Part shown: positions 3,001-60,170 of the stretch, in pieces
How positions within the stretch are numbered: position 1 is the stretch's first letter
How the letters are laid out: each line of letters begins with the position of its first letter
DNA from: Eledone cirrhosa
Taxonomy: Eukaryota
Direction: 5' to 3'
Assembly: GCA_964016885.1 (NCBI GenBank)
Contig: OZ024740.1
Span: 410,688,001-410,752,000, forward strand
Length of the DNA stretch: 64,000 nt
Notes under the pieces: model-generated
Database searches by the model: none
What the model saw: only the letters and a program-made list of their open reading frames with translations
What the model was told of the DNA's origin: nothing
Made by a program: the position numbers and the translations under genes

Positions 3001-6000
3001 GGTGGCATTGTTGTTGTTATTGCTGGTGGTGGTGGCATTGTTGTTGTTATTGCTGGTGGTGATGGCATTGTTGTTGTTATTGCTGGTGGTGGTGGCATTG
3101 TTTTTGTTATTGCTGGTGGTGGTGGCATTGTTGTTGTTGTTGCTGGTGGTGGTGGCATTGTTGTTGTTATTGCTGGTGGTGGTGGCATTGTTGTTGTTGT
3201 TGCTGGTGGTGGTGGCATTGTTTTTGTTATTGCTGGTGGTGGTGGCATTGTTGTTGTTATTGCTGGTGGTGGTGGCATTGTTGTTGTTGTTGTTGCTGGT
3301 GGTGGTGGCATTGTTGTTGTTGTTATTGCTGGTGGTGGTGGCATTGTTGTTGTTATTGCTGGTGGTGGTGGCATTGTTGTTGTTATTGCTGGTGGTGGTG
3401 GCATTGTTGTTGTTATTGCTGGTGGTGGTGGCATTGTTGTTGTTGTTGCTGGTGGTGGTGGCATTGTTTTTGTTATTGCTGGTGGTGGTGGCATTGTTGT
3501 TGTTGTTGCTGGTGGTGGTGGCATTGTTGTTGTTATTGCTGGTGGTGGTGGCATTGTTGTTGTTATTGCTGGTGGTGGTGGCATTGTTTTTGTTATTGCT
3601 GGTGGTGGTGGCATTGTTGTTGTTGTTGCTGGTGGTGGTGGCATTGTTGTTGTTATTGCTGGTGGTGGTGGCATTGTTTTTGTTATTGCTGGTGGTGGTG
3701 GCATTGTTGTTGTTGTTGCTGGTGGTGGTGGCATTGTTGTTGTTATTGGTGGTGGTGGTGGCATTGTTGTTGTTATTGGTGGTGGTGGTGGCATTGTTGT
3801 TGTTATTGCTGGTGGTGATGGCATTGTTGTTGTTATTGCTGGTGGTGGTGGCATTGTTTTTGTTATTGCTGGTGGTGGTGGCATTGTTGTTGTTGTTGCT
3901 GGTGGTGGTGGCATTGTTGTTGTTATTGGTGGTGGTGGTGGCATTGTTGTTGTTATTGGTGGTGGTGGTGGCATTGTTGTTGTTATTGCTGGTGGTGATG
4001 GCATTGTTGTTGTTATTGCTGGTGGTGGTGGCATTGTTTTTGTTATTGCTGGTGGTGGTGGCATTGTTGTTGTTGTTGCTGGTGGTGGTGGCATTGTTGT
4101 TGTTATTGCTGGTGGTGGTGGCATTGTTTTTGTTATTGCTGGTGGTGGTGGCATTGTTGTTGTTGTTGCTGGTGGTGGTGGCATTGTTGTTGTTGTTGCT
4201 GGTGGTGGTGGCATTGTTGTTGTTATTGCTGGTGGTGGTGGCATTGTTGTTGTTATTGCTGGTGGTGGTGGCATTGTTGTTGTTGTTGCTGGTGGTGGTG
4301 GCATTGTTGTTGTTATTGCTGGTGGTGGTGGCATTGTTGTTGTTATTGCTGGTGGTGGTGGCATTGTTTTTGTTATTGCTGGTGGTGGTGGCATTGTTGT
4401 TGTTGTTGCTGGTGGTGGTGGCATTGTTGTTGTTGTTGCTGGTGGTGGTGGCATTGTTGTTGTTATTGCTGGTGGTGGTGGCATTGTTGTTGTTATTGCT
4501 GGTGGTGGTGGTGGCATTGTTGTTGTTATTGCTGGTGGTGGTGGCATTGTTGTTGTTATTGGTGGTGGTGGTGGCATTGTTGTTGTTATTGCTGGTGGTG
4601 GTGGCATTGTTGTTGTTATTGCTGGTGGTGGTGGTGGCATTGTTGTTGTTATTGCTGGTGGTGGTGGCATTGTTGTTGTTATTGCTGGTGGTGGTGGCAT
4701 TGTTGTTGTTGTTGCTGGTGGTGGTGGCATTGTTGTTGTTATTGGTGGTGGTGGTGGCATTGTTGTTGTTATTGCTGGTGGTGGTGGCATTGTTGTTGTT
4801 ATTGCTGGTGGTGGTGGCATTGTTGTTGTTGTTATTGCTGGTGGTGGTGGCATTGTTGTTGTTATTGCTGGTGGTGGTGGCATTGTTGTTGTTGTTGCTG
4901 GAGGTGGTGGCATTGTTGTTGTTATTGCTGGTGGTGGTGGCATTGTTGTTGTTATTGCTGGTGGTGGTGGCATTGTTGTTGTTATTGGTGGTGGTGGTGG
5001 CATTGTTGTTGTTATTGCTGGTGGTGGTGGCATTGTTGTTGTTATTGCTGGTGGTGGTGGCATTGTTGTTGTTGTTATTGCTGGTGGTGGTGGCATTGTT
5101 GTTGTTATTGCTGGTGGTGGTGGCATTGTTGTTGTTATTGCTGGTGGTGGTGGCATTGTTGTTGTTGTTGCTGGAGGTGGTGGCATTGTTGTTGTTATTG
5201 CTGGTGGTGGTGGCATTGTTGTTGTTATTGCTGGTGGTGGTGGCATTGTTTTTGTTATTGCTGGTGGTGGTGGCATTGTTGTTGTTATTGCTGGTGGTGG
5301 TGGCATTGTTGTTGTTGTTGTTGCTGGTGGTGGTGGCATTGTTGTTGTTATTGCTGGTGGTGGTGGCATTGTTGTTGTTGTTATTGCTGGTGGTGGTGGC
5401 ATTGTTGTTGTTGTTGCTGGTGGTGGTGGCATTGTTGTTGTTATTGCTGGTGGTGGTGGCATTGTTGTTGTTGTTGCTGGAGGTGGTGGCATTGTTGTTC
5501 TTATTGCTGGTGGTGGTGGCATTGTTGTTGTTGTTGCTGGTGGTGGTGGCATTGTTGTTGTTGTTGCTGGAGGTGGTGGCATTGTTGTTCTTATTGCTGG
5601 TGGTGGTGGCATTGTTGTTGTTATTGCTGGTGGTGGTGGCATTGTTTTTGTTATTGCTGGTGGTGGTGGCATTGTTGTTGTTGTTGCTGGTGGTGGTGGC
5701 ATTGTTGTTGTTGTTGCTGGTGGTGGTGGCATTGTTGTTGTTATTGCTGGTGGTGGTGGCATTGTTGTTGTTGTTGCTGGTGGTGGTGGCATTGTTGTTG
5801 TTGTTGCTGGAGGTGGTGGCATTGTTGTTCTTATTGCTGGTGGTGGTGGCATTGTTGTTGTTATTGCTGGTGGTGGTGGCATTGTTTTTGTTATTGCTGG
5901 TGGTGGTGGCATTGTTGTTGTTGTTGCTGGTGGTGGTGGCATTGTTGTTGTTATTGCTGGTGGTGGTGGCATTGTTGTTGTTATTGCTGGTGGTGGTGGC

Positions 6001-9000
6001 ATTGTTGTTGTTGTTGCTGGTGGTGGTGGCATTGTTGTTGTTATTGCTGGTGGTGGTGGCATTGTTGTTGTTGTTGCTGGTGGTGGTGGCATTGTTGTTG
6101 TTATTGCTGGTGGTGGTGGCATTGTTGTTGTTATTGCTGGTGGTGGTGGCATTGTTGTTGTTATTGCTGGTGGTGGTGGCATTGTTTTTGTTATTGCTGG
6201 TGGTGGTGGCATTGTTTTTGTTATTGCTGGTGGTGGTGGCATTGTTGTTGTTATTGCTGGTGGTGGTGGCATTGTTGTTGTTGTTGCTGGTGGTGGTGGC
6301 ATTGTTGTTGTTGTTGCTGGTGGTGGTGGCATTGTTGTTGTTGTTGCTGGTGGTGGTGGCATTGTTGTTGTTATTGCTGGAGGTGGTGGCATTGTTGTTG
6401 TTATTGCTGGTGGTGGTGGCATTGTTTTTGTTATTGCTGGTGGTGGTGGCATTGTTTTTGTTATTGCTGGTGGTGGTGGCATTGTTGTTGTTGTTGCTGG
6501 TGGTGGTGGCATTGTTGTTCTTATTGCTGGTGGTGGTGGCATTGTTGTTGTTGTTGCTGGTGGTGGTGGCATTGTTGTTGTTATTGCTGGAGGTGGTGGC
6601 ATTGTTGTTGTTATTGCTGGTGGTGGTGGCATTGTTGTTGTTATTGGTGGTGGTGGTGGTGGCATTGTTGTTGTTATTGCTGGTGGTGGTGGCATTGTTG
6701 TTGTTATTGCTGGTGGTGGTGGCATTGTTTTTGTTATTGCTGGTGGTGGTGGCATTGTTTTTGTTATTGCTGGTGGTGGTGGCATTGTTGTTGTTATTGC
6801 TGGTGGTGGTGGCATTGTTGTTCTTATTGCTGGTGGTGGTGGCATTGTTTTTGTTATTGCTGGTGGTGGTGGCATTGTTGTTGTTGTTGCTGGTGGTGGT
6901 GGCATTGTTGTTGTTATTGCTGGTGGTGGTGGCATTGTTGTTGTTGTTGCTGGTGGTGGTGGCATTGTTGTTCTTATTGCTGGTGGTGGTGGCATTGTTT
7001 TTGTTATTGCTGGTGGTGGTGGCATTGTTGTTGTTGTTGCTGGTGGTGGTGGCATTGTTGTTGTTATTGCTGGTGGTGGTGGCATTGTTGTTCTTATTGC
7101 TGGTGGTGGTGGCATTGTTTTTGTTATTGCTGGTGGTGGTGGCATTGTTGTTGTTGTTGCTGGTGGTGGTGGCATTGTTGTTGTTGTTGCTGGTGGTGGT
7201 GGCATTGTTGTTGTTATTGCTGGTGGTGGTGGCATTGTTGTTGTTGTTGCTGGTGGTGGTGGCATTGTTGTTGTTATTGCTGGTGGTGGTGGCATGTTGT
7301 TGTTATTGGTGGTGGTGGTGGCATTGTTGTTGTTATTGCTGGTGGTGGTGGCATTGTTGTTGTTGTTATTGCTGGTGGTGGTGGCATTGTTGTTGTTATT
7401 GCTGGTGGTGGTGTCATTGTTGTTGTTATTGCTGGTGGTGGTGGCATTGTTGTTGTTATTGGTGGTGGTGGTGGCATTGTTGTTGTTATTGCTGGTGGTG
7501 GTGTCATTGTTGTTGTTGTTATTGCTGGTGGTGGTGGCATTGTTGTTGTTGTTATTGGTGGTGGTGGCATTGTTGTTGTTGTTATTGCTGTTGGTGGTGG
7601 CATTGTTGTTGTTATTGCTCTGTGGTGGTGGCATTGTTGTTGTTATTGGTGGTGGTGGTGGCATTGTTTTTGTTATTGCTGGTGGTGGTGGCATTGTTGT
7701 TGTTGTTGTTGCTGTTGGTGGTGGCATTGTTGTTGTTGTTATTGCTCTGTGGTGGTGGCATTGTTGTTGTTATTGGTGGTGGTGGTGGCATTGTTTTTGT
7801 TATTGCTGGTGGTGGTGGCATTGTTGTTGTTATTGCTCTGTGGTGGTGGCATTGTTGTTGTTGTTGTTGCTGTTGGTGGTGGCATTGTTGTTGTTATTGC
7901 TGGTGGTGGTGGTGGCATTGTTGTTGTTGTTATTGCTGGTGGTGGTGGCATTGTTGTTGTTGTTATTGGTGGTGGTGGCATTGTTGTTGTTGTTATTGCT
8001 GTTGGTGGTGGCATTGTTGTTGTTATTGCTCTGTGGTGGTGGCATTGTTGTTGTTATTGGTGGTGGTGGTGGCATTGTTTTTGTTATTGCTGGTGGTGGT
8101 GGCATTGTTGTTGTTGTTGTTGCTGTTGGTGGTGGCATTGTTGTTGTTGTTATTGCTCTGTGGTGGTGGCATTGTTGTTGTTATTGGTGGTGGTGGTGGC
8201 ATTGTTTTTGTTATTGCTGGTGGTGGTGGCATTGTTGTTGTTATTGCTCTGTGGTGGTGGCATTGTTGTTGTTGTTGTTGCTGTTGGTGGTGGCATTGTT
8301 GTTGTTATTGCTGGTGGTGGTGGTGGCATTGTTGTTGTTATTGCTGGTGGTGGTGGTGGCATTGCTGTTGTTATTGCTGGTGGTGGTGGCATTGTTGTTG
8401 TTGTTGTTGCTGTTGGTGGTGGCATTGTTGTTGTTATTGCTGGTGGTGGTGGTGGCATTGTTGTTGTTATTGCTGTTGGTGGTGGCATTGTTTTTGTTAT
8501 TGCTGGTGGTGGTGGCATTGTTGTTGTTGTTATTGCTGGTGGTGGTGGCATTGTTGTTGTTGTTGCTGGTGGTGGTGGCATTGTTGTTGTTATTGCTGGT
8601 GGTGGTGGCATTGTTGTTGTTGTTATTGCTGGTGGTGGTGGCATTGTTGTTGTTATTGCTGGTGGTGGTGGCATTGTTGTTGTTATTGCTGGTGGTGGTG
8701 GCATTGTTGTTGTTGTTATTGCTGGTGGTGGTGGCATTGTTGTTGTTATTGCTGGTGGTGGTGGTATTGTTGTTGTTATTGGTGGTGGTGGTGGTGGCAT
8801 TGTTGTTGTTGTTATTGCTGGTGGTGGTGTCATGTTGTTGTTATTGCTGGTGGTGGTGGCATTGTTGTTGTTGTTATTGCTGGTGGTGGTGGCATTGTTG
8901 TTGTTGTTATTGCTGGTGGTGGTGGCATTGTTGTTGTTGTTATTGCTGGTGGTGGTGGCATTGTTGTTGTTGTTATTGCTGGTGGTGGTGGCATTGTTGT

Positions 9001-9170
9001 TGTTGTTATTGCTGGTGGTGGTGGCATTGTTGTTGTTGTTATTGCTGGTGGTGGTGGCATTGTTGTTGTTATTGCTGGTGGTGGTGGCATTGTTGTTGTT
9101 GTTATTGCTGGTGGTGGTGGCATTGTTGTTGTTATTGCTGGTGGTGGTGGCATTGTTGTTGTTATAGCTG
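1..9170. repeat. Minisatellite, ~30-bp unit GGTGGTGGCATTGTTGTTGTTATTGCTGGT, running off the left window edge
   Basis: Hundreds of tandem units that vary in GTT/GGT triplet number and by point variants. The long ORFs over it are translations of the repeat. Confidence 0.97.
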
Positions 9171-45285: not shown

Positions 45286-45671
45286 ATTGGATTGGTAGTA
45301 TCGGTAGAGGATCGGACGCTATGCTTTACAGCATAGAGTTATGGCCCTTCCTGATCTGAGTTCAAATCGCGCCGAGGTTAACTTTGCCTTTCATCCTTAC
45401 GGGGTCGATAAAATCAAGTACCAGTAATGTACTGGGATAATTGCTGGCTTTGTGCCAAAAGTAGAAAAAAATATTTTATATAACGTGGATTGGCAGTATC
45501 GGTAGAGAGTCGGACGCCATGCTATGCATTGTAGAGTTACAGCCTTTACAGTCTGAGTTCAAATTCCGCCGAGATTAACTTTGCCTTTCATCCTTACGGG
45601 GTCGATAAAATAAAGTACCTGTAATACAGTGCTATAATTGCTGGCCTTGTGCCAAAAGTAGAAACAATTAT
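45286..45671 (+). mobile_element. Two tandem family A SINEs (45286-45468, 45485-45671)
   Basis: Two full copies separated by ~16 bp. Confidence 0.85.
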
Positions 45672-46311
45672 TCTATATAACGCCTTTGTTCCCTCTGTGA
45701 ACCCTAATATTTTGAACTTGCTAACTCTGTACAGTAAGCGATTATTTCTTCATTTCTGCTGCCACTCTCAAATCCCTTTCCCCAGTAGTGTATCTCTTTG
45801 AAACTGCTAAAGAACATATCTTTTCTATTCATCCATTATCTCTAACGATTATACACTGAACACTATCCTTTTAACTTTGCAGTTTTCAATATAGCTTTCC
45901 TCAGACTAGCAGTAAAGTGAATGAACCTCCGTCAGATTCGGTTGTTCGATCAACTGAACTACAAACTCATTAAATGAGTGTGTAGCTAACTCAGTATTCC
46001 ACAGCTGTATGCACTCTTGACATACTCCTCAAACAAAATGTACGTTATACTATGTGAAAAGACTGAATATTGAAATACAGGTACAATTCTTCCATCGGCT
46101 TCTTTATTTGCTCAGGTTTGACTCCTTTTGAGGTCATCATAAAGAACAGTTCCCAAAGATGTGGTGAAGTGGTCTCAGCAATGAGAACGTCTTAAACATT
46201 CAGGTATGCTAACGATAAAGAAAACACAACCCATTTATATAGAATACTTTTACTTTAAGTAACTTACTTATACTTTATATATTCATTATTAGATATATAT
46301 TTTTTTTTTTA

Positions 46312-46620
46312 GGGCAGTGAATTGGCAATATCGGTAGAGGGTTGGACGCCATGCGTTCTAGCATAATTACGTCCCTTTACGGTCTGAGTTCAAATCCCGT
46401 CGAGGTTAACTTTGCCTTTCATCCTTACGGGGTCGATAAAATAAAGTACCAGTAATGTACTGGGTAATTGTTGGCCTTGTGCCAAAAGTAGAAACAATTA
46501 TTAGATATCTTTTTAAGGCAAGGTTAACTTTACCTTTCATCCTTAAGGGATCGATAAAATAAAGTACCAGTAATGCACCGGGTAATTGCTGGCCGTGTGC
46601 GAAAAGTAGAAACAATTATT
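46312..46620 (+). mobile_element. Family A SINE (46312-46503) plus tandem 3'-half copy (46519-46620)
   Basis: Full copy, then a repeat from AGGTTAACTTT to AGAAACAATTATTAGATAT. Confidence 0.85.
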
Positions 46621-48797
46621 AGATATATTTTATTATTGTAAAACTATAATTAGAACTACCTTATATCTGTCTTGGTGAAGAAATGAAACTTGCATGAAAC
46701 AAATTTACAGACATTTACAAAACGTAAATGTGATTAGTAACGAGTGAAAACAATTACTTCGAAATATCTCCAGTATCTTCTTCACCTACCTATAATTATG
46801 ACCGATAACTCTAACCAAAAATGGATAGATATGAACAGAAATAGGCGACTAGAAAATGGATATTGCTTGTGAATACAACGTGAATAAAGATTATATTACA
46901 ATTGTCTAATGGGTTTGCCACTGATTTCTAGTCAATACACAGCCAGAGAAAACAAAATCACACAAAGAAAGCATGCTGTTTGTAGTATAAAACGATATTT
47001 CACTCGGTGAATATTGAATGTAACGAAGTTGTTAATACGATATTGTTATAATAATTATTTGTTTTGAAGACATCTTTCTGTATTTAATCTCTCAAGAATT
47101 ATGTTTATCAAATTAAATATCATTTCTAATATTGTAATCTCTATCCTTCTCCCTGAAAAGAATTAACAGCTTTTAGTGTCAGAGAGTGGTGAGCTCTGCC
47201 AAGTTTAATAAGCTAAGACGGTACATCTAAGACTCAATCATTCCGGGCCAAATGAAGTGAGCGCCCCCATAACTCCACCGAATTATATAGAAGAATTATG
47301 TCATTATGTTTTATGTGTTTCGGGGATATTGTTGATATTGTAAGATATCTCATGTTATGGGAATTATATTAACCTATTCCTCATTTCCTGTGTTTGATTA
47401 GTGATAGCGTCTTATATAATTTCCTCTGTCTGCTTGATAAGGGTTGCACCGTTGGTTGTTTTGTAAGTCAACAACTGTGTTACCTCATATAATTTATATA
47501 TAATGCGTATTTAGAATTATAGAAAACATCTAGACATCGTGGTTGATACTCATACTTTCATGGTGAAAAAATATCGATATCATCCCAATACTCAATATAT
47601 TTATAATATATTTCAATATGACTGCTATTTTATCGATATTGTTTCATTTAAAATGTCTTTTTCCTCCCTTGCTTCTATGTATTTATTCCCTTTACACAGA
47701 CGCACATTTTAATACAAAGACAGAAGCACCTTGTTTCATGTTTTCTTCTGTATAAATATATTTGAGTTGTTTTTCTCCAAGTATCGTATGGATTCTCATA
47801 ATTATTTGGGATTTTTCTTTTAATGAATTTATATTAAACAGTGAATAGTTTCCTTTACACATTTTTATGTAGAAATTTTCTAATCGATTATACTTTCAAG
47901 TTTACAGATTATTTTCACCGCATCAGAATATCATAATCTGTAATGGAAAATAATATTTCATAAACTATATTTTAAAATCTTACAATTTTCTCGTCATTGG
48001 AATATATTTTATGTGAATTGCTTTTTTTCCAATGAAAACTAAACGAAGATATCGATTTGTTTTTAGTTCAATATATTAATAATGGGCACTTTCCTGTCGC
48101 AAGATATAGGAAGGAAAAGATTATGTATAAATTTTACATAAGCCGTTTAAAACAATTTTTCGTAGAACAATTCCAGTTCAAAGGCCAGTGACCGGCAAAT
48201 AAGCATTTGGAACCAATTTAGTGGGCGGATGTGCCAAATAACTTCCGTTATGACGGAAATGCATTTAATTAAATTCTCCACTGAAGGATGCAGGAGTTAT
48301 TGTGCATGACAAACGAAACTTGCTGCCATTCAGGAACACAAAGACCTATTATAAGTCGTTTAAAAGATATTCTAAACAGGACTGTACATTTTGACTCTAA
48401 GTCAAAATCCAGTCGTTATATGCTAAGGTCTACCAAATCAAGAGATACTGAGACAAAACATACTGTATTTGCGGATAATCTAAAGAACTACACTAATAAT
48501 GCGCACAATCCTGAGAAACAGCTGGGCTTAACATTTTCGGTTGACATAGAGATAGAATTTGGTGAAACAAAATGTTCATGAATTTCATTATGCGTTAGAA
48601 GCTAATTTCGTTATAGCAATGTATAAAATAATTAAAACTAAGTTAACATAAATATACATTCAGTGATGTTTACCGTGTGAAAACTATCGACTATTACTAA
48701 AATAATATATTTGGCCTATTGCGAGTGTAGCAGGAATTTAAAAAGAAAGAAAAAAATGAATAAATGAGGGGAGGAACGAAAGTGAGAGTGAGTCGTA

Positions 48798-48952
<155 letters not shown>

Positions 48953-49026
48953 CAATAGTATTCATAAATGGAAACTATCTTTATAAAACCATATTTATTT
49001 TGGTACGCACTCATCAGATAAAATTG

Positions 49027-49081
<55 letters not shown>

Positions 49082-49161
49082 TTGTGTATAATGGCAGCTA
49101 TGGTGCTTCCATAAGCGGTATGCCAAAATTAGCACTCAATATTCAGCACAGTAGAGTGTAG

Positions 49162-49623
49162 ATAGTATAAAGAAAACGAAAAGATCAGTGATGCATTTGG
49201 ACTCAATTTATTGCGTGTTACAATTGTTTCGCCGGCATGGCCCCTGTATGGATCTGGCTGATTCTACGGCTGCAGGTTCCTCCAGACACGGGTAGTTCGT
49301 TCGGAGCAAATTTTATCACTGGGGTGTTATCATAAAAAAACACCCTCAAAAAACCTCTTTCACTCTTGTCATGCCATTGGCTGTTGTTACTCCACGTAAT
49401 CTTAAGTTCTGGTCACTGTTTACTGCTACACGGGTCATCAGCCATTTTCCGTCCGACACACTTCAATGGAGTCATGCTGGGTTCGGTATTTCACACGTCT
49501 GTTCACACTCCAGAGCATGCACCCACACATACAAATACACACACACATATTCACACACAGGCAGACAGACACATGCGTGCATACACATATGCACGCATAC
49601 ATGCGTAGACCCCCCCCCCCACT

Positions 49624-49656
<33 letters not shown>

Positions 49657-49865
49657 GCTCCCTCACTTCCACAGACCCAGGCACACCCACTTCTAGGTAC
49701 AGACCGCCACAAGCCTATTAACGCCAGCTTATGTCGCGCCATATATCCGGTCCGACAGGCACGGCCCACGTAGACATACACATATACACACATACGCGCG
49801 CACACATGCCAACGCACAACCTTATGTAGATATATATATACACTCATACACACACATACATACAT

Positions 49866-49921
<56 letters not shown>

Positions 49922-50507
49922 GCACACACATACATACAAAATACACATACGTACACAAAATTACATACACACATACGTACACACACACACACATATATAT
50001 ACATGCATACGCGCAACCACACATATACAGACATATCTACATCTACATATACATACGCACACGGACTGCCACATGCAGACACCTGCACATTTGTTTACAC
50101 ACACATGTTTCCACATATACATGTATAAACAAAACCGTAAATTAAAAATACATTATATAATAAAAAACACAATATACCATAACATAACGGTAAGATAACA
50201 ACATAAAGTATCAATATAGTATACAATATGCACACACATTCACACACATTCATACATACATATACGGATATATACAATGGATATATGATAAAATAATAAA
50301 AATAAGAGTAACAAAACATGTATATATAATCCATATATAATCATCCGTACAGATTCCTGTGAGATGTACATAAACATATACATATATACACAAATACACA
50401 TATATAGAGGCCCACATATGCATACACCCGCACCCACACACATATATATATATACATACGCACCCACATACACACACATACCCATACGTAGCTATACGTA
50501 CATACAT

Positions 50508-50569
<62 letters not shown>

Positions 50570-51252
50570 TCTGCCACATACGTGCATACATGTACATGCA
50601 TGCACACATACGCGCTCATAAGCTCATGCCCATATACACACCCCCATACACCCCCCGCATATATATATATATCTACATACCCACACACACACATACACCT
50701 ACGCACAGGTACACACATAAAAACACCCAAATATAAATACAATAGGATAATAAAATAAAATAAATAAATTTACAATATTTTAGAATACATTAAAATCTGT
50801 ATGTAATTTCACAAATAGATACATAAAAAAGGGGTAAATAATAAATAGGGGGGCGGGGGGCGGTACAGGAGAAGGTGTGTGTATCCATGTGATATAATAC
50901 ACATAGGTAGTATGAGGAGCAAACTTGGGTCCGTATATAGAACATGTAACAGTAACAGAACAATAATAGAACAATAATGACAGTAATAATCATTGTTCCA
51001 AAGTGGAACATGTGGAGAGTATATAGTCACGATTGACGGGGTACACATTTTTTGAGGGTGTTTTTTGATGATAAAACCCCAGTGATAAAATTAGCTCCGA
51101 ACGAACTACCCGTGTCTGAAGGCACCTGCAGCCATAGAATCAGCCAGATACACACAGGGACCATGTCTCGAGCTACCTGCCGGCGAAATAATTGTAACAC
51201 GCAATAAATTGAGTCCAGATGCATCACTGATTTTTCGTTTTCTTTATACTAT
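49162..51252. mobile_element. Family G element: inverted ~190-bp arms (49162-49353, 51048-51252) with degenerate long-stem-II HHRs around a CA/TA-rich interior
   Basis: The arms are reverse complements. Plus arm reads CGTGT-CTGAAGG-~60 nt-GAAA-tAATTG-TA-ACACG-cAATAAA (51111-51208); TA-flanked. Confidence 0.7.
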
Positions 51253-51499
51253 ATATATATTGACGAGATTATAGTATTAGCCATAATCGCGTTTGCCCCC
51301 TTTTGGTCACTCAATGAGATATGGTTTGAACTTGTACCGAGCGAAACCTGCCTCAAAGTGTATATTCATAATGTGACGGTTGCATTTCTACGTCTGGACC
51401 AGGGTTTCTGCAAACGTAGTATGTTACGATAAGTGCAATTTGTAACTTGCCGAAAACTGTGATACTGTATTAGCTTCGTCAGCAGACAATGGATTATGA

Positions 51500-51543
<44 letters not shown>

Positions 51544-52132
51544 AGATGAAATTCACTCTACGAACGTGAAAGAGAATCACTGCTATATCAAAGTTGCCTG
51601 CAGTAAGCAGGGACTTTACGTGAGGGTGAATGGTATCTCTTTTGCCAAAGCACAATGGTAAATGGCGGCAAAAATTCGAAATATAATTCAATTCAGTAGC
51701 CATAATTTAGATCTCCATTAGCTTGGGAAAAATAAAAACGGAATTGTACAGAATAGTACAGAAACACAGAGGTAAAAAGGTAATTAATACAATTTACTTA
51801 CGTTACTGGTTGTCTGTTAACTGGGAGAATATATATATTGACGAGGTTAAAAAATTAGCCTTAATCCTGTAATATATATATATATATATATAATATATTT
51901 ATAAACACACAGATACATGCGGACACACACATATATACATGAATGCATCCGCACCCAACTGTGAGTTAAGGGTGCCAACTTCACCGATGTTGCTCAATGA
52001 ATGACTGGGACAGACCAATTCAGTTTGAACCAGACTGAACCAGTATCAGAGTTAAAAATACATTATGAAGAGAGAAGAAACATTTAGATATAATTAGTAA
52101 TAAAATGTATCATACCTAAACTGCTCCTAAAT

Positions 52133-52220
52133 TCCTCGACTACGTAGTTTCGTGGCATAAACAAAAACAATATATCAAAGATATAGAGTCCTTGCGAGGT
52201 CTGCCGACTTATCAAGAGGA
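52133..52220 (-). ncRNA. Type I hammerhead ribozyme, U3-A8 core (also 52724-52811, 53315-53402)
   Basis: TCCTC-TTGATAA-GT(c)GGCA..long loop..TGCCAC-GAAA-CTACGTAG-TC-GAGGA on the minus strand; GUC cleavage triplet. Confidence 0.85.
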
Positions 52221-53952
52221 TACCTCATTTTACTAGTCTCAAGAACGCGTCTACACGACGTGAGAAAGAATCCCAAAAGGCGGAGGGGGAGATAGTCACG
52301 CGATATAACGGTCGAGAAACAGAGCTAAGCCTCTTATAACCACGAAGAAAATACCACGGAGGCGGAGGGGGTATTCATATCGAGGCCGCAGAAGAGGTAG
52401 TGAAGAAGGCGAGAAGTATGAGTAATGGAAGCTTTCCAGTTGTCCCCACACTTCAAAGATTGCTCGACCAGAGGGAGTTATTAATATATTTATAAACACA
52501 CAGATACATGCGGACACACACATATATACATGAATGCATCCGCACCCAACTGTGAGTTAAGGGTGCCAATTTCACCGATGTTGCTCAATGAATGACTGGG
52601 ACAGACCAATTCAGTTTGAACCAGACTGAACCAGTATCAGAGTTAAAAATACATTATGAAGAGAGAAGAAACATTTAGATATAATTAGTAATAAAATGTA
52701 TCATACCTAAACTGCTCCTAAATTCCTCGACTACGTAGTTTCGTGGCATAAACAAAAACAATATATCAAAGATATAGAGTCCTTGCGAGGTCTGCCGACT
52801 TATCAAGAGGATACCTCATTTTACTAGTCTCAAGAACGCGTCTACACGACGTGAGAAAGAATCCCAAAAGGCGGAGGGGGAGATAGTCACGCGATATAAC
52901 GGTCGAGAAACAGAGCTAAGCCTCTTATAACCACGAAGAAAATACCACGGAGGCGGAGGGGGTATTCATATCGAGGCCGCAGAAGAGGTAGTGAAGAAGG
53001 CGAGAAGTATGAGTAATGGAAGCTTTCCAGTTGTCCCCACACTTCAAAGATTGCTCGACCAGAGGGAGTTATTAATATATTTATAAACACACAGATACAT
53101 GCGGACACACACATATATACATGAATGCATCCGCACCCAACTGTGAGTTAAGGGTGCCAACTTCACCGATGTTGCTCAATGAATGACTGGGACAGACCAA
53201 TTCAGTTTGAACCAGACTGAACCAGTATCAGAGTTAAAAATACATTATGAAGAGAGAAGAAACATTTAGATATAATTAGTAATAAAATGTATCATACCTA
53301 AACTGCTCCTAAATTCCTCGACTACGTAGTTTCGTGGCATAAACAAAAACAATATATCAAAGATATAGAGTCCTTGCGAGGTCTGCCGACTTATCAAGAG
53401 GATACCTCATTTTACTAGTCTCAAGAACGCGTCTACACGACGTGAGAAAGAATCCCAAAAGGCGGAGGGGGAGATAGTCACGCGATATAACGGTCGAGAA
53501 ACAGAGCTAAGCCTCTTATAACCACGAAGAAAATACCACTGGTTCAGTCTGGTTCAAACTGAATTGGTCTGTCCCAGTCATTCATTGAGCAACATCGGTG
53601 AAGTTGGCACCCTTAACTCACAGTTGGGTGCGGATGCATTCATGTATATATGTGTGTGTCCGCATGTATCTGTGTGTTTATAAATATATTAATAACTCCC
53701 TCTGGTCGAGCAATCTTTGAAGTGTGGGGACAACTGGAAAGCTTCCATTACTCATACTTCTCGCCTTCTTCACTACCTCTTCTGCGGCCTCGATATGAAT
53801 ACCCCCTCCGCCTCCGTGGTATTTTCTTCGTGGTTATAAGAGGCTTAGCTCTGTTTCTCGACCGTTATATCGCGTGACTATCTCCCCCTCCGCCTTTTGG
53901 GATTCTTTCTCACGTCGTGTAGACGCGTTCTTGAGACTAGTAAAATGAGGTA

Positions 53953-54040
53953 TCCTCTTGATAAGTCGGCAGACCTCGCAAGGACTCTATATCTTTGATA
54001 TATTGTTTTTGTTTATGCCACGAAACTACGTAGTCGAGGA
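53953..54040 (+). ncRNA. Type I hammerhead ribozyme, U3-A8 core (also 54544-54631, 55135-55222)
   Basis: Stem I TCCTC/GAGGA; core UUGAUAA + GAAA; stem III perfect palindrome ACTACGTAGT; predicted cleavage after C54035. Confidence 0.85.
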
Positions 54041-55291
54041 ATTTAGGAGCAGTTTAGGTATGATACATTTTATTACTAATTATATCTAAATGTTTCTTCT
54101 CTCTTCATAATGTATTTTTAACTCTGATACTGGTTCAGTCTGGTTCAAACTGAATTGGTCTGTCCCAGTCATTCATTGAGCAACATCGGTGAAGTTGGCA
54201 CCCTTAACTCACAGTTGGGTGCGGATGCATTCATGTATATATGTGTGTGTCCGCATGTATCTGTGTGTTTATAAATATATTAATAACTCCCTCTGGTCGA
54301 GCAATCTTTGAAGTGTGGGGACAACTGGAAAGCTTCCATTACTCATACTTCTCGCCTTCTTCACTACCTCTTCTGCGGCCTCGATATGAATACCCCCTCC
54401 GCCTCCGTGGTATTTTCTTCGTGGTTATAAGAGGCTTAGCTCTGTTTCTCGACCGTTATATCGCGTGACTATCTCCCCCTCCGCCTTTTGGGATTCTTTC
54501 TCACGTCGTGTAGACGCGTTCTTGAGACTAGTAAAATGAGGTATCCTCTTGATAAGTCGGCAGACCTCGCAAGGACTCTATATCTTTGATATATTGTTTT
54601 TGTTTATGCCACGAAACTACGTAGTCGAGGAATTTAGGAGCAGTTTAGGTATGATACATTTTATTACTAATTATATCTAAATGTTTCTTCTCTCTTCATA
54701 ATGTATTTTTAACTCTGATACTGGTTCAGTCTGGTTCAAACTGAATTGGTCTGTCCCAGTCATTCATTGAGCAACATCGGTGAAGTTGGCACCCTTAACT
54801 CACAGTTGGGTGCGGATGCATTCATGTATATATGTGTGTGTCCGCATGTATCTGTGTGTTTATAAATATATTAATAACTCCCTCTGGTCGAGCAATCTTT
54901 GAAGTGTGGGGACAACTGGAAAGCTTCCATTACTCATACTTCTCGCCTTCTTCACTACCTCTTCTGCGGCCTCGATATGAATACCCCCTCCGCCTCCGTG
55001 GTATTTTCTTCGTGGTTATAAGAGGCTTAGCTCTGTTTCTCGACCGTTATATCGCGTGACTATCTCCCCCTCCGCCTTTTGGGATTCTTTCTCACGTCGT
55101 GTAGACGCGTTCTTGAGACTAGTAAAATGAGGTATCCTCTTGATAAGTCGGCAGACCTCGCAAGGACTCTATATCTTTGATATATTGTTTTTGTTTATGC
55201 CACGAAACTACGTAGTCGAGGAATTTAGGAGCAGTTTAGGTATGATACATTTTATTACTAATTATATCTAAATGTTTCTTCTCTCTTCATA

Positions 55292-55326
<35 letters not shown>

Positions 55327-55525
55327 CACGAGTCTGTGTATGTGTGTATGTGTGCATGTGTGAGCGTAAGGTAGAGTGACGCAATTTCGAGTGATCATCG
55401 GCCTTTAGACTCACTTGATCAATGAAACAATGGTTAATACTGTAAATAAAACCCTTTTTGTACAGCCGACCATGTTATTCTTCACTCTTTCACTACATAT
55501 ATATATATATACTTATATATATATA

Positions 55526-55643
<118 letters not shown>

Positions 55644-55667
55644 TATATATATATGCATATATATATA

Positions 55668-55790
<123 letters not shown>

Positions 55791-55983
55791 CAGGATTAAT
55801 GCTAATTTATTAACCTCGTCAATATATATATTCTCCCAGTTAACAGACAACCAGTAACGTAAGTAAATTGTATTAATTTCCTTTTTACCTCTGTGTTTCT
55901 GTACTATTATATACATACATACGTACTATTATATACATACATACATACATACACACACACACATATATATATAATTAGATGTG

Positions 55984-56028
<45 letters not shown>

Positions 56029-57722
56029 TATATGTGCACACATATATTTAAATGTAACTGTGTATCTATATGTGCGCATATTTGGATGTCTGTTTCTTTA
56101 TGAGATATAATCTACATTGAATATATCAATGACAAAATATAAAATAAATTTAAAACCGCAATAAATCAGTTTCAAGCCTCGATAAATAAGAAAATAAGTG
56201 TGAAATGGAGAGCATCAGGAAGATTAAAAATATTTACTGCAATGCGGAAGTTATTATACCAAATTTCTTTATGGAAGAAACCCGAAAGTATAAAACGCTA
56301 TTTAAAATATTTTGAATTCGTTTAAGTTCAAGCACATATAACGAAATGTATTATTAATATCAAGGTAGGTTTATATAGCTGATAAAATGACAAGATCGTA
56401 TACATTTATATCATGTGCACTTTAAATAGCTTTGTAGCTTTTCTGGTTTACGTTATTGTAGTGCCACATCTATGGTTGCGATAAAATAGAATTAGTGGAA
56501 TAGCGGATGAAATGCCTCTTGCTATTTGTGTTTTAAATTTAAATATTTATTTTATCGATGTCGGATATAATAGAATGCAACGTGTTTTCTTCGTTGGTTA
56601 TTGTTTTGACTTTAAATATTATAGTCGTAAATACCCAAATACGAGTAGATGTTCACGGGCGGAATGTCATTCAGCATAGTTTTGTTGGGTTATAGCTGAT
56701 CTTATCTAAACAACATTGTATTGACTTAACATGAAAGGTAACTTGGAAGCATATATATTTTTATATAAAGTCATATTAAAGTATAAACTAAAAACTGACT
56801 ACACGGGAGGAAAAAATATTTGGATGAGAATATCCCAGAAAAATGTTAAAATGCAAAATAATGCAAATTCAAACTTTAATTCTAAAAGACCGAGTAAATA
56901 TATAGAATAACAGCTTCGCGATCAGAATTCTTCAAGACAAACATACAGGGAGCAAGCCGAAGTAAAATCAACAAATGATGAAACACTCCAGACTAAAACA
57001 GTTCAGAATGAATGACTAAAAAGACCTTTTGGAAAAACAATATTGAAACAATTAGAAACTATGTAATCAGTAAAATGTGACGATAAAATCGTTTCTCTTG
57101 TACAATTACAAGAGACAATCAATCATGATGTTTCTAGTTGAATAACCTTATCAAAAGTGAAATAGAAATATATAGATTTTCATTGCCTACGCAATAGTAT
57201 CGTTCTGTTAAAGAGTACAATACCCTATAATTCTCTGGAAACTATTCTGAATATAACAATGCTAGACTATATATAACAAATGTTACTTGAAATGGAACGA
57301 AATCTCTGGCCTGATGTCTTCACTGTTACGTAGCAAGAAATCATTTGAAGAAAATCCTCTATTAGTTCCAAAATATTTACGCCAGCAGCGATCAAAGATT
57401 GTTTTTCTAGGTGAAACTCTGCAATGAGTCGACCATAGTAACGATCATTAGCGTACTATTCTCCCTGATAATTAAAGCATTCGATTTGTGTGACAAAGAA
57501 GCCTCTGGTTAGGCATATTAACACAAACGAAAATACTCCACGGCGTGTTGTATGCGTCAATAATGCCAAACCCTTTAGATGAACAATAGCTAATAATCTT
57601 ATAAAAGACCATTAACTATAATCCATATCTTATAACGAAGTAAGTGAAGGGGGGCGGGTGAAGAATATGAAATAGCTCAGTGACAAATATGCATACATAC
57701 ATACATACATACATACATACAT

Positions 57723-57773
<51 letters not shown>

Positions 57774-57850
57774 AATATCTAATGGTAGCTAAGGTCCTTC
57801 CATGGGCGGTATGCTGGTTGAGCACTCTATGGTCCTACGGAGCAGAGTAT

Positions 57851-58141
57851 TATAGAATGGAAAACGAAAAATCAGTGATGCATCGGAACTCAATTTATTG
57901 TGTGTTACAATTGTTTCTCCGGCGAACAGCTCGAGGTGCGATCCATGTGTGGATCTACCTGACTCTAGTCTCGCAGGTTCCTCGGACACGAAATCAATAG
58001 ACGTGTCCGAGGAACCTGCGAGACTAGAGTCAGGTAGATCCACACATGGATCGCACCTCGAGCTGTTCGCCGGAGAAACAATTGTAACACACAATAAATT
58101 GAGTTCCGATGCATCACTGATTTTTCGTTTTCCATTCTATA
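57851..58141. repeat. Near-perfect hairpin of two family G 3' ends with degenerate HHRs
   Basis: ~140-bp arms and an 11-bp spacer; GTGT-CCGAGGA-long stem II-GAAA-CAATTG-TA-ACAC-acAATAAA. Confidence 0.85.
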
Positions 58142-58515
58142 TATATATATATATATTTACAAATGGCAACTTAGTAAAATAGAAGCTTTGGCTGCGGCCA
58201 AGCAAAAGCTACCTACAATTAGGAATGAGTAGCAAAGTACTCAATAAGGTAGGGCCTTAGAGTAATAAAATACGTTTAGGCAGCTTGACAAATTGAAAAT
58301 TGCGGCAGGCAAAACCCAGCCATACAATACCAAAACGACGAAAAAATTAATCAGGTTAGACAACAGCCCTGGACAAATCGAATGATATTCTGCAATACGT
58401 CCGATATGTTTCTATGAATTCGAAATCATCAATCCAACTTACGTAATACGTAAGCTTGTGGTATTCTACGATCGAACAGGGGATTCGCGTCATCGACAGG
58501 TATTTCGTTCTATGC

Positions 58516-58568
<53 letters not shown>

Positions 58569-58754
58569 GTTATATAGTAAGGTGTATTATTGGTTGTGTC
58601 ATACGGTCCAATAAACTTTTGTTAGCAATATTAAGTTCTCCACGCTATTGTATATCTCCAATTCCATTTATGGGAACAGCTAGATGATGTAAAACGGAGT
58701 ATTTGTATCAAAATAAAGATCCGAAGGCATGGTATAAATTTCTAATCATTTTAA

Positions 58755-58828
58755 TCACGACAGATGTTTCAATAAGGGATAAATCGATTGTGTGGTCGTG
58801 ATCGATTATCACTGATCTCATCAGGTGA
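58755..58828 (-). ncRNA. Type I hammerhead with extended stem II (family H, left arm)
   Basis: TCAC-CTGATGA-~47 nt-GAAA-CATCTG-TC-GTGA. Confidence 0.65.
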
Positions 58829-59210
58829 ATAATGAAATGTCTTCAAATATGAGGGAGGAAAAACTAACGATGTTCACTCACTAGAGTTTTGTACCCCATA
58901 TGAAGGATCAGCAGCCAAAGCACGCCAACTGCCCTCGTCTTCAGTCAGGGTCATAAATCTATCAAGTCTCTATCTCTCATCGATACAATTCAATCAATAC
59001 ACGTATAGCAGAACGTTGAACGGAATTTACTTGCGTGTGTATAGGGTTGTGGTTGACCCATTTTTTTCTAATTTACATCGTTAAGATTGAGATTTGACCA
59101 ATATAACATTTGTTGTTTTGTAGCCTAACTTTCGGTGCATACTGTGTTTATACCGAAATTCTACAGATTTGATGCTGAGATTAGATCTGTCCAGCGTCTT
59201 TTACAGCTAT

Positions 59211-59284
59211 TCACCTGATGAGATCAGTGATAATCGATCATGACCACATGATCGATCTATCCATTATTGAAACATGTGTCGTGA
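59211..59284 (+). ncRNA. Type I hammerhead with extended stem II (family H, right arm)
   Basis: TCAC-CTGATGA-~47 nt-GAAA-CATGTG-TC-GTGA; arms 58706-58831 and 59208-59333 are inverted. Confidence 0.65.
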
Positions 59285-59328
59285 TTAAAATGATTGGAAA
59301 TGTATACCATGCCTTCGGATCTTTATTT

Positions 59329-59363
<35 letters not shown>

Positions 59364-59595
59364 TTATTCCGGGTTGAATCGGAGGTAACCACAGTAAGTA
59401 AGGTACTCAATACATAGCAGAGTATAAAAGTTTTAATATAGAAGAGCTTCTACAGGAATATATATAAAGAGAGAGAGAGGAGACGGAAAAGGATAGTGAG
59501 CGAAAGGATAGGCTGTTTATCACACTGCACTGTCTGGTAAATAAAACAACTTTATGTTGCTTTAAGCAGGAAACGAAAGAGGATCTATATTCAAA

Positions 59596-59773
59596 TAATT
59601 GTTTCTACCTTTGGCACAAGGCCAGCAATTATCCCAGTGCTTTACTGGTACTTTATTTTATCGACCCCTTAAGGATGAAAGGCAAAGTTAACATCGGCGG
59701 GATTTGAACTCAGATCGGAAAGGGACGTAGCTATGCTGGAAAGCATGTCCGGCCCTCTACCGATACTGCCAAT
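59596..59773 (-). mobile_element. tRNA-derived SINE (family A)
   Basis: Reverse copy. Confidence 0.85.
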
Positions 59774-59981
59774 TTCAAATAATGAAGTATAAACTCCTCG
59801 AAATATTTCAAAGCTTTTTAAATAATATATTTTTGTAAAATATTGTAACATTATTTAAGTTTAGTTTTTATCACTCTCATTAAACTGTTCAGAAGAAAAG
59901 TAAACCTTCATAATTGAAAATCTATGATGTTTGACACCACTTGTGTTCAATCTTGAATGTACTGTCACATTTACACATTAT

Positions 59982-60170
59982 TGGTGAATTAGCAGTATCG
60001 GTAGAGGGTTGGACGCCATGCTTTGACGCATAGAGTTACGGCCCTTGCCATTCTGAGTTCAAATCCCACCGAGGTTAACTTTGCTTTTCATCCTTACGGG
60101 ATCGATAAAATAAAGTACCAGTAATGCACTGGGTATTTGCTGGCCTTGTACCAAAAGTAGAACAATTATT
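59982..60170 (+). mobile_element. tRNA-derived SINE (family A)
   Basis: Full-length copy. Confidence 0.85.

What the first reader, a model, noticed from the sequence alone, without database searches (positions are those of the whole stretch)
51891..55297. Large (591-nt) retrozyme-like repeat carrying a rare U3-A8 hammerhead with extended stem II
Seen: six copies of TCCTC-UUGAUAA-stem II (GTcGGCA/TGCCAC closing a ~45-nt insert)-GAAA-CTACGTAG-UC-GAGGA, one per 591-bp unit. C3 and G8 of the CUGANGA core are both changed (U3, A8), which keeps the 3-8 pair. Stem III is a perfect 10-nt palindrome. I saw only one difference among units (C>T at 52570). Established: metazoan non-LTR retrozymes are tandem repeats with type I HHRs that self-cleave into monomers and circularise, are usually a few hundred nt, and are thought to be mobilised by PLEs; palindromic stem III permits dimeric cleavage. 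Inference: a young, probably active, unusually long retrozyme family that standard CUGANGA searches would miss.
Basis: partly seen in the sequence, partly recalled or inferred. Interest (0 to 1): 0.9.

Follow-up and report, generated by a model that had tools for sequence, protein, structure and literature searches.

The report
Hammerhead retrozyme with Penelope insertion footprint
This 591-base non-coding repeat occurs in thousands of copies, keeps a conserved variant of the hammerhead ribozyme motif, and is inserted in the same two-armed way as a Penelope-type retrotransposon of the same genome, which likely copies it from a predicted self-cut RNA circle.

Summary
The six hammerhead (HHR) motifs are real, but the locus is not a six-unit tandem. 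It is two arrays joined 5'-to-5' (2.8 units minus, 3.0 plus), each ending in (TA)n. The family has about 7,400 HHR copies. Core and stems match at 42/44 positions in a 75%-identical older subfamily.

Arms end at two fixed sites, A (+80 from the predicted cut) and B (about +245). Of 27 head-to-head junctions, 24 pair A with B and none pair like with like. This is the Penelope 'tail at one end' footprint. A young Neptune/Nematis-type element here (RT + GIY-YIG) shares the U3-A8 core, the (TA)n target, site A near +80 and the A+B rule, so it is the likely helper. Units differ 0.24% within an insertion and 2.05% between insertions, which fits rolling-circle copying of one monomer.

U3-A8 and 591 nt are both already reported (PMC4209133, PMC3088659; bioRxiv 10.64898/2026.07.22.740005). 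Cleavage, circular RNA and helper identity are inferred, not shown. Verdict: new variant of a non-LTR retrozyme, interesting for its mechanism footprint.

The parts
51891..53539 (-). Left arm, 2.8 units; 3' end at 51891 = site B (unit +247), 5' end at unit +372
53538..55297 (+). Right arm, 3.0 units; 5' end at unit +94, 3' end at 55297 = site A (unit +80)
53538..53539 (.). 5'-to-5' junction of the two arms, 2-nt microhomology
54036..54626 (+). One 591-nt monomer from predicted cut to predicted cut (unit numbering +1 to +591); longest ATG-started ORF 75 aa
53953..54040 (+). Type I hammerhead motif: stem I, U3-A8 core 53958-53964, stem II with bulged C, palindromic stem III, predicted cut after 54035
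53979..54011 (+). Hairpin extension of stem II; pairing kept across subfamilies by A-U/G-U/G-C exchanges
54544..54631 (+). Hammerhead motif copy
55135..55222 (+). Hammerhead motif copy
53315..53402 (-). Hammerhead motif copy
52724..52811 (-). Hammerhead motif copy
52133..52220 (-). Hammerhead motif copy
54090..54115 (+). Site A (pyrimidine tract then TA-like end, unit +80): one of two fixed 3' ends, inferred start of reverse transcription
   Evidence: loose TA ends at 54115 in run X2
54255..54282 (+). Site B (unit +235 to +247): second fixed 3' end; the A-B interval of about 165 nt is the Penelope-type 'tail'
   Evidence: loose TA ends at 54280 in run X2
51872..51890 (.). (TA)n target, left
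55298..55326 (.). (TA)n target, right

Best explanation
This is a non-coding, multi-thousand-copy repeat with a conserved U3-A8 hammerhead motif and a Penelope-type two-armed insertion pattern, likely a non-autonomous retrozyme whose RNA would self-cleave, circularise and be copied into (TA)n by a Neptune-type Penelope enzyme. Proposed cycle: (1) an array is transcribed, probably from an internal promoter (inferred); (2) two hammerheads pair through the 10-nt palindrome and cut after GUC, releasing 591-nt monomers that are ligated into circles, in which stem I is predicted to be folded away (inferred from folding and the known retrozyme model); (3) the helper RT/GIY-YIG protein cuts both strands of a (TA)n tract and starts one cDNA at site A and the other at site B on the same RNA (fixed ends, A+B pairing and shared variants shown; enzyme step inferred); (4) both cDNAs can run past the cut site for more than one unit (shown in the DNA), as rolling-circle copying would give; (5) their distal ends are joined by microhomology into the 5'-to-5' structure (junctions shown, repair route inferred). 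The most likely helper is the young family here called Nep-A (L131); about 0.6 for that family, about 0.9 for some Penelope-like element.
For: Dispersed young family: 619 candidates, 40 scored, full-length hits at 99-100% on many contigs; 7,402 exact half-motifs. Motif under constraint: an older subfamily found with an HHR-free query matches the young unit at 42 of 44 core/stem positions versus 379 of 503 elsewhere, Fisher p=0.0012. The only recurrent substitution in these 44 positions at more than 3 of 73 loci is the bulged C of stem II (9 loci; also a CpG site). No C3-G8 version of the family (0 matches). The HHR strand folds far better than shuffles (circular, z -6.0); the other strand does not (z -1.3). 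Stem III is improbable in a monomer (pair probability 0.02-0.03), while the palindrome duplex is -12.9 kcal/mol. Footprint in 53 position-ordered loci (82 arms): 40 end at A, 37 at B, 5 elsewhere; 75 of the 77 run into (TA)n; 24 of 27 head-to-head junctions are A+B, 0 A+A or B+B; 20 of 27 overlap by 1-11 nt; 34 of 82 arms exceed 600 bp. One template per insertion: 0.24% within versus 2.05% between arrays; 14 haplotypes in 19 doubly covered arrays; 12 of 51 loci carry a variant fixed in all covering units and absent from the other loci, e.g. 7/7 and 8/8 units over both arms in L092. Helper: Nep-A encodes RT + C-terminal GIY-YIG and has a U3-A8 core (6,978 pattern matches, all 100 listed of this type), ends near +80 and +150 into (TA)n, 19 of 20 head-to-head pairs A+B, and 72 of 91 scored copies stop-free over 467 aa at 98-100% identity. 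Literature: tail at one end and inverted 5'-truncated copies are Penelope hallmarks (PMC8557442); Penelope RT cuts and extends both strands and starts at two internal RNA sites (PMC11167929).
Against: No cleavage or circle was shown. 5' ends show no spike at the predicted cut: 18 at +1 versus 15 at +11, 5 at -13, 3 at -25. 53 of 158 5' ends fall in +326 to +425, about twice the uniform share, so some templates may be uncut linear transcripts. Short Nep-A copies run through their own HHR to about -72, and HHR cleavage was dispensable for insertion in vitro (PMC11167929). L063 carries a stem I mismatch in 3 of 3 units. 28 within-array variants are shared with other loci, and L022 and L026 have 3/4 and 4/5 patterns. 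The retrozyme shows no BLASTN similarity to Nep-A, site B differs (+245 versus +150), and only 50 of 150 listed GIY-YIG loci (10,596 candidates) were examined. The stem II-extension covariation is weak against its shuffle control (14/500, related sequences). 8 of 9 Xenopus retrozyme dimers did not cleave in vitro (bioRxiv 10.64898/2026.07.22.740005).
Confidence: 0.7

Rival explanations
1. Same family and same Penelope helper, but the template is a linear, uncut multimeric transcript. The hammerhead is weak or serves as a protein-binding fold, and arrays are regenerated by template jumping or DNA-level homogenisation rather than by a circle.
For: No spike of 5' ends at the cut; 5' ends cluster at +326 to +425; Nep-A short copies cross an uncut HHR to a common 5' end near -72; PMC11167929 found uncut RNA to be the dominant substrate in vitro; stem I mismatch fixed in L063.
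Against: Many haplotypes, each fixed across up to 8 units and both arms, need repeated passage through a single unit followed by re-multimerisation. Tandem junctions keep the cut site exact. The catalytic core is conserved over 25% divergence. 12 of 12 examined +1 ends are true junctions exactly at the predicted cut. Two runs each hold one unbranched contig of unit length + 30, though their library type is not on record.
Confidence: 0.17
2. The 591-nt unit is the detached pseudo-LTR of a still unseen autonomous Penelope family, and the copies are 5'-truncated ends of that element rather than a parasite of Nep-A.
For: The footprint is fully Penelope-like. Xenopus retrozymes resemble Penelope pseudo-LTRs (bioRxiv 10.64898/2026.07.22.740005). 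Only a sample of about 110 of several thousand loci was read.
Against: In the loci read, arms continue upstream into further 591-nt units, the other arm or (TA)n. None of 50 GIY-YIG loci carries this HHR as its end; L126 holds an independent two-armed insertion. The same unit layout persists through subfamilies at about 97, 88, 81 and 74% identity.
Confidence: 0.08
3. An ordinary satellite or foldback repeat spread at the DNA level, with a chance or dead hammerhead-like motif.
For: Near-identical units and an inverted arrangement; Rfam finds no hammerhead.
Against: Fixed 3' ends, variable 5' ends and polarity; strand-specific folding; selective conservation of the 44 ribozyme positions; an identical footprint in an RT-encoding element.
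Confidence: 0.03

Closest known systems
Metazoan non-LTR retrozymes (Cervera and de la Pena 2020, PMC7229834, passages read; Li, Clavereau and Pollet 2026, bioRxiv 10.64898/2026.07.22.740005, parts 1-3 of 5 read)
   Same: Non-coding tandem units, each with a type I hammerhead; GC below 45%; thousands of copies; structured RNA; Penelope elements in the same genome.
   Different: U3-A8 core; 44-nt insert in stem II with a conserved hairpin instead of a short loop 2; 10-nt palindromic stem III; larger than the 150-450 bp of the 2020 paper; short dispersed arrays in (TA)n with two fixed 3' ends and frequent 5'-to-5' inversion, which I did not see described for retrozymes in the passages read. Cleavage and circles were shown there and not here.
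Penelope-like element pseudo-LTR hammerheads, including the U3-A8 variant of Schistosoma Cercyon (PMC4209133, parts 1-2 of 4 read)
   Same: U3-A8 covariation, palindromic helix III for dimeric folding, irregular base of helix II, pairs of motifs on opposite strands 100-700 bp apart.
   Different: Here helix III is a long palindrome rather than minimal, helix II is extended by a hairpin, and no ORF is attached.
Neptune/Nematis and Poseidon Penelope-like elements (PMC8557442, passages; PMC11167929, parts 1-2 of 4)
   Same: (TA)n or AT-rich targets, inverted 5'-truncated arm, tail at one end only, two internal start sites downstream of the HHR.
   Different: The retrozyme encodes no RT or endonuclease. 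Its tail is about 165 nt (Nep-A about 68 nt) against the 30-40 bp quoted for Penelope elements.
MRC1 and other non-autonomous Chlamys elements (PMC8557442, passage)
   Same: Non-autonomous Penelope dependants forming multicopy head-to-tail insertions.
   Different: Those resemble their helper at the 3' end and most Chlamys lack HHRs; here there is an HHR and no BLASTN similarity to the candidate helper.

Membership tests
Type I hammerhead ribozyme | Core YUGANRA / GAAA / UH with a 3-8 Watson-Crick pair | tested here: met
   U3-A8 core, GAAA and GUC in all six copies; 99 of 100 listed genome copies have U3-A8; natural U3-A8 variants are published and stated to be active in vitro (PMC3088659).
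Type I hammerhead ribozyme | Three helices with stem I open-ended, conserved | tested here: met
   98.8% of cells paired in 26 copies; helices I-III nearly invariant, so conservation rather than covariation; the ribozyme fold is 2.4 kcal/mol above the MFE in a 120-nt fragment.
Type I hammerhead ribozyme | Loop 1-loop 2 tertiary contact of canonical HHRs | not tested
   Loop 2 is replaced by a 44-nt insert; no contact was modelled.
Type I hammerhead ribozyme | Site-specific self-cleavage | not testable with these tools
   Genomic proxy inconclusive: 18 5' ends at +1 versus 15, 5 and 3 at control sites.
Metazoan non-LTR retrozyme | Tandem units each carrying a type I HHR | tested here: met
   3 + 3 units in the window; arrays of up to about 5 units per arm elsewhere.
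Metazoan non-LTR retrozyme | Non-coding, low GC, no LTR-type organisation | tested here: met
   Longest ATG ORF 75 aa; GC about 0.41-0.43; ends are (TA)n junctions. PBS and PPT were not searched for separately.
Metazoan non-LTR retrozyme | Dispersed by retrotransposition | tested here: met
   Fixed 3' ends, variable 5' ends, many contigs, several subfamilies.
Metazoan non-LTR retrozyme | Expressed as a unit-length circular RNA | tested here: inconclusive
   Single unbranched contigs of unit length + 30 in runs X1 and X6, library type not on record; DNA haplotype pattern fits a monomer template.
Autonomous Penelope-like element | ORF with RT and GIY-YIG endonuclease | tested here: not met
   None in the unit or attached in the loci read; present in the candidate helper.
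Penelope-mobilised element | Inverted 5'-truncated arm, tail at one end, microsatellite target | tested here: met
   24 of 27 junctions A+B; 75 of 77 A/B ends run into (TA)n.
Neptune/Nematis clade (helper Nep-A) | C-terminal GIY-YIG with a CX2-5CxxC linker; clade placement by RT tree | tested here: inconclusive
   Domain order and linker seen in the L131 translation; no named reference RTs were on hand, so Neptune versus Nematis was not resolved.

The most novel reading that the evidence does not exclude
A ribozyme-cut circular RNA parasite and its Penelope helper caught as a matched pair. One RT/endonuclease complex primes both target strands at two fixed sites on a single 591-nt RNA circle and rolls round it twice, leaving a two-armed insertion in which every unit carries the same private mutations. 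The helper would recognise its parasite by a shared U3-A8 hammerhead and its spacing to site A rather than by sequence. That would give the first concrete retrozyme-helper system for reconstituting circle-templated integration.
Probability: 0.35. Interest if true: 0.78.

Novelty: new variant of a known kind. Interest (0 to 1): 0.55.

Why it matters
Animal retrozymes are proposed to be mobilised by Penelope elements through circular RNA, but the papers I read rest this on co-occurrence, shared HHR type and pseudo-LTR similarity, and call the mechanism unresolved. Here the insertion footprint itself (two fixed start sites used one per strand, both arms from one haplotype, multi-unit read-through) matches a young RT/GIY-YIG family in the same genome. 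That supplies a named RNA and a named protein for an in vitro test of circle-templated integration. It also shows that about 13,000 hammerhead-type motifs in one genome use a core that CUGANGA descriptors would skip; the Rfam scan of this window missed all six.

Tried and rejected
Rfam scan of 48000-60000: no hammerhead family, only microsatellite-driven miRNA noise. RNA holders: no RNA holder listed among 6 runs; this says nothing about expression. A second read-laying meant to tell DNA from RNA runs gave no result, so the nature of X1, X3 and X6 stays open. Test for cDNA run-off at the cut: no spike. Canonical C3-G8 ancestor of the family: none found. Sequence kinship to a Penelope pseudo-LTR: none by BLASTN in 50 GIY-YIG loci; 25-bp matches to another family lie antisense within its ORF and look like chance. 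PDB search with the helper protein: 0 hits. Homologue search: 463 proteins, RT and GIY-YIG domains, no informative clade names among the 120 listed. Earlier scan findings: none. Literature searches hammerhead+Penelope+octopus, retrozyme+C3U/G8A, octopus+ribozyme+retrotransposon+circular RNA and Neptune+hammerhead listed no description of this family. Repbase/Dfam and subscription papers were not searchable, one paper on dimeric Penelope HHRs was not held, and I read no supplements, so the family may already be catalogued. Target-site duplications cannot be read because both ends lie in (TA)n. Rejected: 'rare core' and 'unusual length' as the source of interest.
Full report
Observation. Three copies lie on each strand. 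The locus is a minus arm (51891-53539) and a plus arm (53538-55297) joined at their 5' ends by a 2-nt overlap, both running into (TA)n. I number the unit from the first base after the predicted GUC cut (+1 = 54036). The left arm's 3' end is at +247 and the right arm's at +80. Rfam found no hammerhead here at E<=1.

Family. The genome has 3.0 Gb in 1,796 contigs. Its size, its roughly 30 large contigs and its SINE-like repeats look like an octopus to me; this is recalled and was not tested. The unit gave 619 candidates, 40 scored, with full-length hits at 99-100% on many contigs. A 22-nt 3' half of the motif occurs 7,402 times (control 0). A 5' half with positions 3, 7 and 8 left free occurs 6,336 times; 99 of the 100 listed are U3-A8 and one is U3-G8. 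A C3-G8 version has 0 matches. Subfamilies sit at roughly 97, 88, 81 and 74% identity. The longest ATG-started ORF in the unit is 75 aa.

Is the hammerhead real? To avoid circularity I retrieved the oldest subfamily with a query lacking the ribozyme (27 loci used, the query's own locus and two overlapping loci left out). Its majority state matches the young unit at 42 of 44 core and stem positions, 32 of 44 in the stem II insert and 379 of 503 elsewhere (Fisher p=0.0012). One of the two differences looks like an alignment artefact. In 26 natural copies 98.8% of cells pair. Helices I-III hardly vary, so they give conservation, not covariation. The 13-pair extension has 6 pairs varying on one side and 1 on both, 99.1% paired, but only 14/500 against shuffles of related sequences. 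The ribozyme fold costs 2.4 kcal/mol over the MFE in a 120-nt piece, monomeric stem III has pair probability 0.02-0.03, and the palindrome duplex is -12.9 kcal/mol, so a dimer is predicted. In the circular monomer stem I has probability 0. The HHR strand folds at z -6.0, the other at z -1.3; the isolated 106-nt motif is not more stable than shuffles (z -0.42). U3-A8 is a known natural covariation, stated to be active in vitro (PMC3088659, passages), and occurs in about 1,300 Schistosoma Penelope-type HHRs (PMC4209133, parts 1-2). Length is within the 51-972 bp reported for animal retrozymes (bioRxiv 10.64898/2026.07.22.740005, parts 1-3), though above 150-450 bp (PMC7229834, passages).

Insertion footprint. 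I read 53 loci taken in order along contig C1, all picked by an exact match to an HHR half (overlapping loci, one duplicate and one locus with cut-off ends left out). Of 82 arms, 40 end at site A (+72 to +86), 37 at site B (+232 to +255) and 5 elsewhere; 75 of the 77 run into (TA)n. All 27 inversions are 5'-to-5'. 24 pair A with B (13 and 11 in the two orders), none pair A+A or B+B, and 3 involve another end. 20 of 27 junctions overlap by 1-11 nt. 34 of 82 arms exceed 600 bp. In 17 top-hit loci, 9 of 10 head-to-head junctions are A+B; the one tail-to-tail case there (L029) is a young copy beside an older one. An independent run shows loose TA ends at 54115 and 54280. An inverted truncated arm and a tail at one end only are Penelope hallmarks (PMC8557442, passages). 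A Penelope protein cuts and extends both target strands and starts at two internal RNA sites that define the tail (PMC11167929, parts 1-2).

One template per insertion. Over 73 loci, with indel-ambiguous columns left out, units differ by 0.24% within an insertion and 2.05% between insertions. 19 doubly covered arrays fall into 14 haplotypes. 12 of 51 multi-covered loci have a variant fixed in all covering units and seen in no other locus of the sample, 4 of them in three or more units, including both arms of L092 (7/7 and 8/8) and L042. Both arms therefore come from one haplotype, and each haplotype must have passed through a single unit and been re-multimerised. I read this as rolling-circle copying (inferred). 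Against: 'private' is relative to 73 of several thousand loci; 28 within-array variants are shared with other loci; L022 and L026 show 3/4 and 4/5 patterns; L063 has a stem I mismatch in all 3 units.

Cleavage and RNA. Exact-junction counts are 18 at +1, 15 at +11, 5 at -13 and 3 at -25, and 12 of 12 examined +1 cases are true junctions. This is a step, not a spike, and is inconclusive. Of 158 5' ends, 53 lie in +326 to +425 and 11 in +1 to +25; the first cluster may be a start site or a pause. Runs X1 and X6 (other organism codes, library type not on record) each hold one contig of 621 and 620 letters, which is unit + 30, the length of a closed loop at word size 31 (word size of the contigs recalled). 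Each has a single haplotype and no branch. In the genome sample 30 of 113 passages of site A exit into (TA)n and position 14 is split 43:32, so an unbranched loop is not what this genome's DNA would easily give. It is a hint of a circle or an array transcript, not proof.

Helper. The genome has 10,596 GIY-YIG candidates, 150 scored; I read 50 of them. One family (Nep-A; L131, unit 4,979 bp) encodes RT followed by a CX4CxxC linker and GIY-YIG. It carries a compact U3-A8 hammerhead with a palindromic stem III; it was the only U3-A8 motif my palindrome-requiring scans found in these loci apart from the retrozyme itself, and they missed a canonical-core motif I read by eye in another family. The pattern has 6,978 matches, all 100 listed of this type. 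Nep-A's 3' ends fall near +80 and +150 into (TA)n. In 20 regions that I picked mostly as opposite-strand neighbours, 19 of 20 head-to-head pairs are A+B, 1 is B plus another end, and one region had no pair. Site A is a pyrimidine tract ending in TA at the same distance in both elements, and site B has a similar TTTCT-A-rich end. 72 of 91 scored copies are stop-free over 467 aa at 98-100% identity, most with a 775-aa open frame; whether a complete N-terminus exists was not established. Against: no BLASTN similarity between retrozyme and Nep-A, other families also end in (TA)n, and many short Nep-A copies read through their own HHR to about -72, i.e. from uncut linear RNA.

Verdict. It works like, and on the testable features belongs to, the non-LTR retrozymes. 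It is a variant in ribozyme build and, more usefully, one whose DNA footprint ties it to Penelope-type twin-site priming and points to a specific helper. Shown: motif, conservation, copy number, two fixed ends, A+B rule, homogeneity within insertions, and a Penelope family with the same footprint. Inferred: cleavage, circle, rolling-circle copying, helper identity. My searches listed no description of this family, but repeat libraries and supplements were not seen.

Noticed in passing
L131:2150-8400 (G000:C1:145.87 Mb) and about 7,000 sites: Young Neptune/Nematis-type Penelope family with a compact U3-A8 hammerhead. Many insertions are short two-armed pieces whose 5' ends cluster at about -72 from the cut, some 30 nt below a TATA-like box, suggesting copying of uncut transcripts from a pseudo-LTR promoter.
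   Followed up: partly
window 51745-51903 and 55756-55915: A 160-bp inverted pair (96% alike) flanks the retrozyme insertion, each copy facing a (TA)n tract; the left part (51640-51875) had no match in other fetched loci. Possibly another TA-targeting element or an inverted duplication.
   Followed up: partly
window 55326-55497: Short repeat between two (TA)n tracts ending in a pyrimidine tract much like site A; 77-97% matches in 6 other fetched loci, perhaps the 3' end of another Penelope-dependent family.
   Followed up: partly
L136:1233, L145:4962, L138:9089: Other hammerhead-like motifs with a canonical core, long AT-rich stem II and palindromic stem III; two of them end in (TA)n about 45 nt after the cut. 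A second family with an extended stem II.
   Followed up: no
L134 and L140, 3' of the ORF: A second Neptune-type family with a canonical-core minimal hammerhead (read by eye) and a promoter-like block similar to Nep-A's.
   Followed up: no
window 1-9170: 30-bp minisatellite, about 299 copies, strong strand skew.
   Followed up: no
window 45288-45682 and 46403-46631: Tandem copies of a SINE-like repeat; it resembles octopus SINEs as I recall them, not tested.
   Followed up: no
window 51048-51260, 49159-49353, 57860-58148: Another interspersed repeat of about 200 bp, with an inverted pair at 57860-58148.
   Followed up: no
one search hit list: Several relatives of the helper protein are labelled as proteins of bivalve gill symbionts, probably host Penelope sequence carried in those assemblies.
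   Followed up: no
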